DNA from: Escherichia coli
GTDB lineage: Bacteria > Pseudomonadota > Gammaproteobacteria > Enterobacterales > Enterobacteriaceae
Reading direction: 5' to 3' (one strand)
Assembly: GCF_051903065.1 (NCBI RefSeq)
Contig: NZ_CP178442.1
DNA length: 37,672 bases
The position numbers and the translations under genes are program-made. This document shows, piece by piece, positions 36,804 to 37,672 of the stretch. The stretch's first letter is position 1; every line of letters begins with the position of its first letter. Below the pieces are notes generated by a model. The model worked only from the letters and a program-made list of their open reading frames with translations, was not told the origin of the DNA and did no database searches.

Positions 36804-37672
36804 ATGAGACTTTTTATCGCAGAAAAACCCGCAGTAGCAAATGATATTGTTAAGGCACTTGGTGGCAATTTTACCCGCCATGATGGCTGGTTTGAAAGTG
36901 ATAACGCCATTGTGACTAACTGTTTTGGTCATATTATCGAATCACAACCGCCGGAAAACTATAATCCTGAATACAAAGCCTGGAAGGTTGAAACGCTTCC
37001 TTTACGTCTTTATCCCGTGAAGTATCAGCCTGTTGAAAGTGCAGCAAAACAGGTTAAAACGATTCTCGAACTTATCAGACGTGGAGACGTGACTGAAATT
37101 GTTCACGCTGGCGATCCTGATGATGAGGGACAGCTACTTGTTGATGAAGTCCTGGAATATGCAGGAAACACAAAACCCGTAAAGCGCGTTCTGATTAACG
37201 ACAACACGCTTCCGGCAGTGAAAAAGGCACTGGCAAATCTTAAAGATAATCGTGATTTCAAAGGGCTTTACCTTAAGGCGCTGGCGCGTTCAGTTGCTGA
37301 TGCCGTCTATGGCTTCTCCATGACGCGTGCTTACACCATTCCGGCACAGGCCAGAGGATATCAGGGTGTTCTGTCTGTCGGGCGCGTCCAGACTCCCGTT
37401 CTTGGCCTGATTGTGAACCGTACCCGTGCTAACCAGAACCATAAATCCAGTTTTTACTACACCATGACCGGAGTCTTTCAGCGTGGTGCTGATGTTATCA
37501 GGGCGAACTGGAAGCCAGGGGAATTTGCTCCGCTGACAGACCGTAAATTACTTGATAAAGCGTGGGCAGACGGAACGGCTGCATCCCTTGCCGGAAAACC
37601 GGCTACAGTTGAAGCGGCAGCAACTGATGATAAAAAAACGGCTGCGCCGTTGCCGTTTAACCTGGTCAGACT
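36804..37672 (+). CDS. topB: DNA topoisomerase III, 5' part (N-terminal 289 aa); continues at position 1 across the circular junction
   Basis: ATG at 36804 after ggataacaaa; Toprim domain start MRLFIAEKP, conserved HAGDPDDEGQLLVDEVLEY and GYQGVLSVGRVQTPVLGLIV motifs as in E. coli TopB; no stop before window end. Confidence 0.85.
   Translation, partial: MRLFIAEKPAVANDIVKALGGNFTRHDGWFESDNAIVTNCFGHIIESQPPENYNPEYKAWKVETLPLRLYPVKYQPVESAAKQVKTILELIRRGDVTEIVHAGDPDDEGQLLVDEVLEYAGNTKPVKRVLINDNTLPAVKKALANLKDNRDFKGLYLKALARSVADAVYGFSMTRAYTIPAQARGYQGVLSVGRVQTPVLGLIVNRTRANQNHKSSFYYTMTGVFQRGADVIRANWKPGEFAPLTDRKLLDKAWADGTAASLAGKPATVEAAATDDKKTAAPLPFNLVR

What the first reader, a model, noticed from the sequence alone, without database searches (positions are those of the whole stretch)
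36804..37672. Window ends are contiguous: topB is split across the junction, so this is a circularly permuted complete replicon
The N-terminal 289 codons of a topoisomerase III gene run off the 3' end of the window, and the 5' end of the window opens in the matching frame with the C-terminal 428 codons. Joining ct (37671-37672) to c (1) makes a Leu codon and a product (..[31 protein letters not shown]..) colinear with TopB. Total gene length would be 2154 nt (717 aa), a normal TopB size. This means the 37,672-bp window is most simply a whole circular plasmid, and every feature should be interpreted on a circle.
Basis: seen in the sequence. Interest (0 to 1): 0.5.

Follow-up and report, generated by a model that had tools for sequence, protein, structure and literature searches.

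The report
Complete circular IncX4 cfr plasmid
The window is one whole, already published type of circular antibiotic-resistance plasmid (IncX4, pSD11-like, carrying cfr) that was cut open inside its topoisomerase III gene when written as a line, so the split gene is a file-format effect and not biology.

Summary
The observation and the interpretation are both correct, and the result is ordinary. Joining window 36804..37672 to 1..1285 gives one uninterrupted 717-codon ORF; the split codon CT|C is Leu290. The product aligns colinearly and without a gap across the junction to E. coli topoisomerase III (PDB 1d6m, E=3e-117). It has Toprim, Topoisom_bac and Toprim_Crpt domains. It passes the NCBIfam topB cut-offs only when joined (627 bits against 597); each half alone scores about 302 bits and matches abutting parts of the profile.

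A 3-kb artificial junction is found uninterrupted at 100% identity in 13 plasmid records, and at 80% coverage or more in 1030. The whole window is a rotated reverse complement of pSD11 (KM212169, IncX4, cfr, swine E. coli, China). It also matches pYUYZVE78-cfr and pYUYZVE29-cfr. All three are circular records of exactly 37,672 bp, each with 5 substitutions and no indels.

The window has no terminal overlap, only one topB copy, one pir with its iterons, one T4SS and the two oriT inverted repeats typical of IncX. It is therefore a complete plasmid monomer linearised at an arbitrary point. The topB-hha-hns module spans the junction. This is already known and of low interest. Physical circularity of this particular sample cannot be tested without reads.

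The parts
36804..37672 (+). topB 5' part: codons 1-289 plus the first 2 nt (CT) of codon 290. It includes the Toprim domain with E7 and D104-x-D106-x-E108.
   Evidence: annotated as one CDS in pSD11
1..1285 (+). topB 3' part: the last nt of codon 290 (Leu), codons 291-717 and the TGA stop. It includes catalytic Tyr321 (aligned to E. coli Y328), the decatenation-loop region around residues 499-530, a C4 zinc ribbon at 635-655 and Toprim_Crpt at 653-709.
1282..1488 (+). hha. Its GTG start overlaps the topB stop (GTGA), so the topB-hha-hns module crosses the window junction.
1504..1968 (+). Plasmid H-NS family gene (the Sfx/hns module of IncX plasmids).
   Evidence: PMC11796372
3604..6788 (.). 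IS26-cfr-IS26 resistance module: IS26 at 3604-4423 and 5969-6788 in direct orientation, cfr at 4843-5892 on the minus strand.
11511..12518 (-). pir replication initiator. The pSD11 record starts at this gene: window 12518 equals pSD11 coordinate 1.
12604..12982 (.). 22-bp iterons (AACCATAAATCTGTCCCC..) upstream of pir. This is the single vegetative origin region.
   Evidence: families D3, D4
19398..19492 (.). oriT-containing long inverted repeat next to taxA/taxC. Its partner arm lies at 10920-11014, near the replicon.
   Evidence: I1, 95 nt, 99%; PMC3402527
19503..34536 (+). Transfer region: taxA (ddp1), taxC relaxase, virB1-virB11-type T4SS, taxB coupling protein, Cag12-family and TrbM-family genes.

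Best explanation
The window is the complete monomer sequence of a circular, conjugative IncX4 plasmid of the pSD11 type. It carries the multiresistance gene cfr between two IS26 copies. It is written as a line that opens at an arbitrary point inside topB and on the opposite strand to the GenBank records. On the circle, topB is one intact 717-aa gene for a type IA topoisomerase (topoisomerase III subfamily). From family knowledge, this enzyme cuts one DNA strand through a 5'-phosphotyrosine made by Tyr321, with Mg2+ held by the Toprim acidic residues E7, D104, D106 and E108, and passes another strand or duplex through the gate to relax or decatenate DNA. The gene belongs to the conserved IncX backbone module topB-hha-hns and appears translationally coupled to hha. 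Shown here: sequence continuity, gene integrity, family membership, and identity to known circular plasmids. Inferred: catalytic activity, and its role in the plasmid (decatenating replication or transfer intermediates, or relieving H-NS/Hha-imposed topological stress). The literature states that this role is still unproven.
For: The joined ORF is 717 aa with no stop. PDB E. coli Topo III aligns at E=3e-117 over residues 1-610 in one stretch across residue 290, with E7, the DxDxE motif and the catalytic Tyr aligned. Pfam finds Toprim, Topoisom_bac and Toprim_Crpt. NCBIfam NF005829 scores 626.8 against a cut-off of 597, and TIGR01056 topB 538.5 against 515.75. The halves score 302 bits each, on abutting profile ranges. 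The junction 3-mer of 3 kb is 100% identical in one piece in 13 plasmids, and 1030 records cover at least 80% of it. The full-length window equals rotated, reverse-complemented pSD11, pYUYZVE78-cfr and pYUYZVE29-cfr, all 37,672 bp and circular, with 5 SNPs and 0 indels. The junction is also intact in the cfr-less backbone pEC276_3. There is no terminal overlap and a single topB. [quoted passage not shown]
Against: No reads or assembly graph for this sample were available, so circular closure of this particular molecule is inferred from identity to published circular records. The window is not base-identical to any record examined (5 SNPs each), so its own source record was not found. Topoisomerase activity and biological role of IncX TopB are not demonstrated. 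R485 and pNGX2-QnrS1 survive with disrupted topB (PMC3402527, PMC4207749), so the gene is dispensable for basic maintenance.
Confidence: 0.97

Rival explanations
1. The window is a fragment of a larger molecule, such as a cointegrate, a fusion plasmid or a chromosomal integration. Its two ends would then fall in two different partial topB copies, and the apparent continuity would be coincidental.
For: Larger relatives exist: p727A3-62K-cfr, 62.7 kb (H4; PMC9493366). IS26 is known to drive cointegrate formation. No read evidence is available for this sample.
Against: The window length is exactly that of three circular records, with 0 indels over the whole length. The ends abut to the exact nucleotide and reading frame. 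No IS or repeat lies at the ends, and there is one topB only. The junction is uninterrupted in more than 1000 plasmids.
Confidence: 0.02
2. The molecule in the cell is a head-to-tail multimer, or the contig is one unit collapsed from a tandem repeat, so a 'monomer circle' describes the sequence but not the physical form.
For: A unit of a tandem multimer is indistinguishable from a monomer in a single-unit sequence. The plasmid carries a tyrosine recombinase (7534-8358), the kind of gene that resolves multimers, which implies multimers do arise.
Against: No duplicated terminal sequence is present in the window. Published records give the monomer as the replicon. This would not change any sequence-level interpretation.
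Confidence: 0.01
3. The in-frame join is a chance event between an N-terminal topoisomerase fragment and an unrelated ORF at the other end.
For: A frame match alone has a 1 in 3 prior.
Against: Both halves hit the same topB profiles on abutting positions, 1-283 and 287-658. There is a gapless alignment to E. coli Topo III across the join. The intact gene is identical in many records.
Confidence: 0

Closest known systems
pSD11 (GenBank KM212169; Sun et al. 2015, Antimicrob Agents Chemother 59:738, cited in PMC7823714 and PMC9493366). cfr-carrying IncX4 plasmid from swine E. coli 8ZG6D, China.
   Same: Same length (37,672 bp), same gene order, the same IS26-cfr-IS26 module and an identical topB. 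The two are colinear over every base after rotation and reverse complementation.
   Different: There are 5 substitutions, at window 4062, 16534, 16550, 16564 and 33431. The linearisation point differs (pSD11 starts at pir, the window starts inside topB) and the strand is opposite.
pYUYZVE78-cfr and pYUYZVE29-cfr (NZ_CP069136.1, NZ_CP069135.1). IncX4 cfr plasmids from E. coli on tomato and lettuce, Jiangsu, China.
   Same: 37,672 bp, circular and colinear with the window.
   Different: There are 5 substitutions, at window 4062, 6427, 6581, 6582 and 15511. Four of them lie inside IS26 copies.
pEC276_3 (NZ_CP018950.1, 35,225 bp). IncX4 backbone without cfr, from human E. coli, Pittsburgh.
   Same: The backbone is essentially identical: 3 mismatches over 33.8 kb. 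topB and the window junction are intact.
   Different: Window 3604-7488 (IS26-cfr-IS26 plus about 700 bp) replaces 1,438 bp of this backbone.
E. coli chromosomal topoisomerase III (TopB; PDB 1d6m, 1i7d, 2o19).
   Same: The type IA fold domains align colinearly over residues 1-610 (E=3e-117). E7, DxDxE and the catalytic Tyr (Y328 aligned to Y321) are conserved. A loop is present at the position of the E. coli decatenation loop (the loop's role is from my own knowledge of Li et al. 2000, Mol Microbiol 35:888).
   Different: Conservation is only partial. The plasmid protein is longer (717 against 653 aa). It has an 8-residue Lys/Asp-rich insertion in the loop region and a C-terminal C4 zinc ribbon plus Toprim_Crpt repeat that the E. 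coli enzyme lacks. It is encoded on the plasmid in a module with hha and hns.

Membership tests
DNA topoisomerase III (type IA; NCBIfam TIGR01056 topB / NF005829) | Whole-protein score above the curated family cut-off | tested here: met
   NF005829 scores 626.8 bits against 597, and TIGR01056 538.5 against 515.75, for the joined protein. Each half alone scores about 302 and 240-276 bits, below the cut-offs. The equivalog models NF006032 and NF011313 are not reached, so this is subfamily-level membership only.
DNA topoisomerase III (type IA; NCBIfam TIGR01056 topB / NF005829) | Domain architecture: N-terminal Toprim followed by the Topoisom_bac core | tested here: met
   Pfam Toprim at 3-131 (1.4e-9) and Topoisom_bac at 153-598 (5.7e-96).
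DNA topoisomerase III (type IA; NCBIfam TIGR01056 topB / NF005829) | Catalytic tyrosine and Toprim acidic cluster (E, DxDxE) | tested here: met
   Y321 aligns with E. coli Y328. E7 aligns with E7. D104/D106/E108 align with D103/D105/E107.
DNA topoisomerase III (type IA; NCBIfam TIGR01056 topB / NF005829) | Mg2+-dependent ssDNA cleavage, relaxation and decatenation activity | not testable with these tools
   This needs biochemistry. [quoted passage not shown]
IncX4 conjugative plasmid (complete replicon) | IncX4 replicon (pir type) and MOBP taxC relaxase | tested here: met
   The window is near-identical (5 SNPs) to records typed IncX4 / MOBP / MPF_T by PLSDB. pir lies at 11511-12518(-) and taxC at 20010-21239(+).
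IncX4 conjugative plasmid (complete replicon) | Full IncX backbone pir-par-hns-topB-pilX/virB-taxCA present once | tested here: met
   Feature map transferred from pSD11. The backbone definition comes from PMC11880322.
IncX4 conjugative plasmid (complete replicon) | Two oriT copies within long inverted repeats, one near taxC and one near the replicon | tested here: met
   A 95-nt inverted repeat, 99% complementary, at 10920-11014 and 19398-19492. [quoted passage not shown]
IncX4 conjugative plasmid (complete replicon) | Sequence closes on itself with nothing missing or duplicated | tested here: met
   Same length as three circular records with 0 indels. No terminal overlap. The junction is intact in other records.
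IncX4 conjugative plasmid (complete replicon) | Physical circularity of this sample's molecule | not testable with these tools
   No reads or assembly graph are available.

The most novel reading that the evidence does not exclude
The IncX TopB is not a redundant copy of the host enzyme. On this reading it is a plasmid-specialised decatenase/relaxase, marked by its extended Lys-rich loop and its C-terminal zinc ribbon plus Toprim_Crpt. It would be translationally coupled to Hha and H-NS and would counteract the topological constraint those silencers impose, so tuning conjugation or establishment. This is a published suggestion (PMC11796372) that remains untested. Nothing here excludes it, and nothing here supports it beyond gene order and the GTGA overlap.
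Probability: 0.25. Interest if true: 0.35.

Novelty: already known. Interest (0 to 1): 0.05.

Why it matters
The result matters mainly for bookkeeping. Every feature in this window must be read on a circle, and the topB-hha-hns module crosses the file boundary. Gene callers working on the linear window will miss or truncate topB. The plasmid itself is a known vehicle of cfr (PhLOPSA multiresistance, including linezolid and florfenicol) that circulates in Chinese livestock and on vegetables. No new biology follows from the split gene.

Tried and rejected
- **Terminal overlap.** I searched for a terminal direct repeat of 5-400 nt that would indicate an untrimmed circular assembly. None was found.
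- **Second topB copy.** A tblastn of the joined protein against the window found only the two abutting halves.
- **Exact source record.** pSD11, pYUYZVE78-cfr and pYUYZVE29-cfr each differ by 5 SNPs. The complete E. coli RefSeq genomes hold no full-length match to window 3500-17500. A 25-kb search of PLSDB was saturated by IS26 hits and uninformative.
- **Original pSD11 paper.** PMC4291432 is not held, so facts about pSD11 come from the GenBank/PLSDB record and from papers that cite it.
- **Promoter and terminator scan near topB.** Counts were at the level of shuffled sequence, so they were not used.
- **The 420-bp repeat as an Frpo homologue.** Distant blastn hits were confined to IncX4-size and roughly 60-kb plasmids, with no large IncF-size records among the listed hits. 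No homology to F-type Frpo can be claimed. Only a structural and positional resemblance remains.

Full report
**Observation**

The sequence from the ATG at 36804 to the last base, 37672, is 869 nt. That is 289 codons plus the dinucleotide CT. Base 1 of the window is C, which completes CTC (Leu290). The frame then stays open for 427 more codons to the TGA at 1283-1285.

The joined gene is 2154 nt including the stop and encodes 717 aa.

**Is the join real or chance?**

Four independent tests say it is real.

1. *Structure-database alignment.* The joined protein aligns to E. coli DNA topoisomerase III (PDB 1d6m, 1i7d, 2o19 and others) with E about 3e-117. The alignment is a single stretch covering query 1-610 and chain 1-604, with no gap at residue 290.
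2. *Family profiles, whole against halves.* NCBIfam gives 626.8 bits on NF005829 'DNA topoisomerase 3' (cut-off 597) and 538.5 bits on TIGR01056 topB (cut-off 515.75) for the joined protein. The N-terminal half alone scores 302.1 bits on profile positions 1-283. The C-terminal half alone scores 302.8 bits on positions 287-658. The two halves are thus abutting parts of one family profile, and only the joined protein passes the curated thresholds.
3. *The junction in other plasmids.* I joined the last 1500 and the first 1500 bases of the window and searched PLSDB. The 3-kb query is present as one uninterrupted piece in 1030 records at 80% coverage or more. It is 100% identical over all 3000 bases in 13 of them, where it is annotated 'type IA DNA topoisomerase | hypothetical protein | hha'.
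4. *Copy number.* A tblastn of the joined protein against the window finds only the two abutting halves and no further topoisomerase fragment. Nothing in the terminal 2 kb is repeated elsewhere in the window.

**What the window is**

Three of the 100% hits are circular records of exactly 37,672 bp, the window's own length:
- pSD11 (NZ_KM212169.1; E. coli 8ZG6D, swine, China)
- pYUYZVE78-cfr (NZ_CP069136.1; tomato)
- pYUYZVE29-cfr (NZ_CP069135.1; lettuce)

PLSDB types all three as IncX4, MOBP, MPF_T and conjugative.

After reverse complementing and rotating each record to the window's first base, every one is colinear with the window over all 37,672 positions. Each shows 5 substitutions and no indel. 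The conversion is: window position = (12518 - pSD11 coordinate) mod 37672 + 1.

pSD11 is written starting at pir, while the window starts inside topB and on the other strand. The window has no terminal direct repeat of 5-400 nt, so nothing is duplicated or missing at the join. The junction is also intact in the cfr-less backbone pEC276_3 (NZ_CP018950.1, 35,225 bp).

The window is therefore a complete plasmid monomer linearised at an arbitrary point. pSD11 is cited in the literature as a 37,672-bp cfr-carrying IncX4 plasmid (PMC9493366, PMC7823714).

**Anatomy on the circle**

Coordinates are transferred from the pSD11 annotation:
- topB, 36804..1285 (+)
- hha, 1282-1488 (+); its GTG start overlaps the topB stop (GTGA)
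- H-NS family gene, 1504-1968 (+)
- IS26-cfr-IS26, 3604-6788
- tyrosine recombinase, 7534-8358
- ParA/MipZ-like ATPase, 8463-9122
- DUF2726 gene, 10378-10905 (-)
- pir, 11511-12518 (-), with 22-bp iterons at 12604 and 12842-12982
- RelE/ParE toxin-antitoxin pair, 13884-14406
- a block of small + strand genes, 14.4-19.1 kb, including a J-domain protein and hicAB
- taxA, 19503-20006, and taxC, 20010-21239
- the virB1-virB11-type T4SS, 22176-31967
- taxB, 31954-33816
- accessory genes up to 36799

[quoted passage not shown] A 95-nt, 99% complementary inverted repeat lies at 10920-11014 and 19398-19492. [quoted passage not shown]

**How TopB most likely works**

*Shown by sequence.* The protein has a Toprim domain (3-131), a Topoisom_bac core (153-598) and a C-terminal Toprim_Crpt repeat (653-709). 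E7, D104-P-D106-D-E108 and Tyr321 align with E. coli E7, D103/D105/E107 and the catalytic Y328.

*Inferred from established knowledge of type IA topoisomerases.* The enzyme would perform Mg2+-dependent cleavage of one strand through a 5'-phosphotyrosyl link to Tyr321. It would then pass a strand or duplex through the gate and religate, giving relaxation of negative supercoils and decatenation of gapped or single-stranded intermediates.

*Differences from the host enzyme.* The region aligned to the E. coli decatenation loop is present and carries an 8-residue Lys/Asp-rich insertion. I recall the loop as residues 502-519 from Li et al. 2000; that is my own knowledge and was not tested here. Unlike E. 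coli TopB, the plasmid enzyme ends in a C4 zinc ribbon (CPSC...CTGC, 635-655) plus Toprim_Crpt.

*Biological role.* This is not established:
[quoted passage not shown] Over-expression there gave no quinolone resistance or mutator effect.
- R485 and pNGX2-QnrS1 carry disrupted topB (PMC3402527, PMC4207749), so the gene is not essential for maintenance.
- PMC11796372 suggests it could relieve Hha/H-NS-imposed topological stress and so promote conjugation.

The GTGA overlap with hha fits co-expression but proves nothing more.

**Rivals**

| Rival | Assessment |
|---|---|
| Fragment of a larger cointegrate with two partial topB copies | Contradicted by the exact length match, 0 indels, a single topB and clean abutment to the nucleotide. 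|
| Tandem multimer in the cell | Cannot be excluded from a one-unit sequence, but it would not alter interpretation. |
| Chance in-frame join | Excluded. |

The one untestable point is physical closure in this very sample, because no reads are available.

**Novelty and score**

The plasmid, its topB gene and its circular organisation are all published. The finding is a correct and useful housekeeping observation: interpret the window as a circle. It carries no new biology. Interest is 0.05.

**Things seen in passing**

*cfr module.* The two IS26 copies (3604-4423, 5969-6788) are direct repeats that differ at one base (window 4062 G against 6427 A). They lack a flanking 8-bp target duplication (AGCAATCC against GTTTTCTC). 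Relative to pEC276_3, window 3604-7488 replaces 1,438 bp of backbone. Four of the five differences from the pYUYZ plasmids, and the one difference shared by all three references (4062), lie inside IS26 copies. That pattern suggests gene conversion between copies or repeat-assembly ambiguity.

*Origin of the cfr segment.* Its GC content is 30%, against 42% for the plasmid. It carries an Rfam hit to the Bacillus sRNA ncr1575 at 4529-4746(-) (110.7 bits). Both fit a Firmicutes origin.

*A doubtful gene name.* ORF 3032-3676(-), annotated 'malate dehydrogenase', starts inside IS26. It is probably an IS26-truncated backbone gene with an unreliable name.

*A 420-bp direct repeat.* A perfect 420-bp direct repeat lies at 14999-15418 and 17079-17498. 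Each copy ends immediately before a + strand gene in the block that points towards oriT.
- It occurs 2-4 times per record in IncX4 and roughly 60-kb plasmids.
- It folds somewhat better than shuffles as ssDNA, with z = -2.5 on the + strand and -3.1 on the - strand.
- This resembles the Frpo/ssi single-strand promoters of leading regions (PMC11541004), but no homology or activity was shown.

Noticed in passing
window 14999-15418 and 17079-17498: A perfect 420-bp direct repeat, GC-rich compared with its surroundings. Each copy ends right at the start of a + strand gene (J-domain gene at 15420; small gene at about 17456/17497) in the block of genes that point towards oriT. It occurs 2-4 times per record in IncX4 and roughly 60-kb plasmids. 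ssDNA folding gives z = -2.5 and -3.1. It is a candidate Frpo/ssi-like leading-region single-strand promoter, and this is unproven. It contains a 119-aa ORF that looks spurious.
   Followed up: partly
window 10920-11014 and 19398-19492: A 95-nt inverted repeat, 99% complementary. One arm lies next to taxA/taxC and the other next to the DUF2726 (ddp3-position) gene near pir. Each arm holds an internal palindrome (GACAATCATGG..TGTTAACA..). This matches the two oriT copies in long inverted repeats known as an IncX hallmark (PMC3402527).
   Followed up: partly
window 3604-7488: IS26-cfr-IS26 with no 8-bp target-site duplication. Together with about 700 bp (6789-7488), it replaces 1,438 bp of the cfr-less IncX4 backbone pEC276_3. 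The two IS26 copies differ at one base (4062 G, 6427 A). Most SNPs against the published 37,672-bp records fall inside IS26.
   Followed up: partly
window 4529-4746 (-): An Rfam gathering-level hit to the Bacillus sRNA ncr1575 (RF02452, 110.7 bits) just downstream of cfr, inside a 30% GC segment. It looks like a relic of the Gram-positive origin of the cfr fragment.
   Followed up: no
window 3032-3676 (-): A 214-aa ORF annotated 'malate dehydrogenase' in RefSeq records. Its start codon and first 24 codons lie inside the IS26 left end. It is probably an IS26-truncated backbone gene (793-nt ORF in pEC276_3) with a misleading product name.
   Followed up: partly
window 12604-12631 and 12842-12982: Six copies of a 22-bp iteron (AACCATAAATCTGTCCCC core) upstream of pir. 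One isolated copy lies close to the pir start, and a cluster of five lies about 330 bp away. This is the usual Pir operator plus origin arrangement.
   Followed up: no
window 1282-1285: The topB stop codon overlaps the GTG start of hha (GTGA), which suggests translational coupling of topB-hha, followed by hns 16 nt downstream. The module straddles the window boundary.
   Followed up: no
window 16534, 16550, 16564: Three clustered substitutions relative to pSD11 only (G against A/T/T), within 31 nt at the 3' end of a hypothetical gene (16040-16582). The pYUYZ plasmids agree with the window here, so these are probably pSD11-specific variants or sequencing errors.
   Followed up: no
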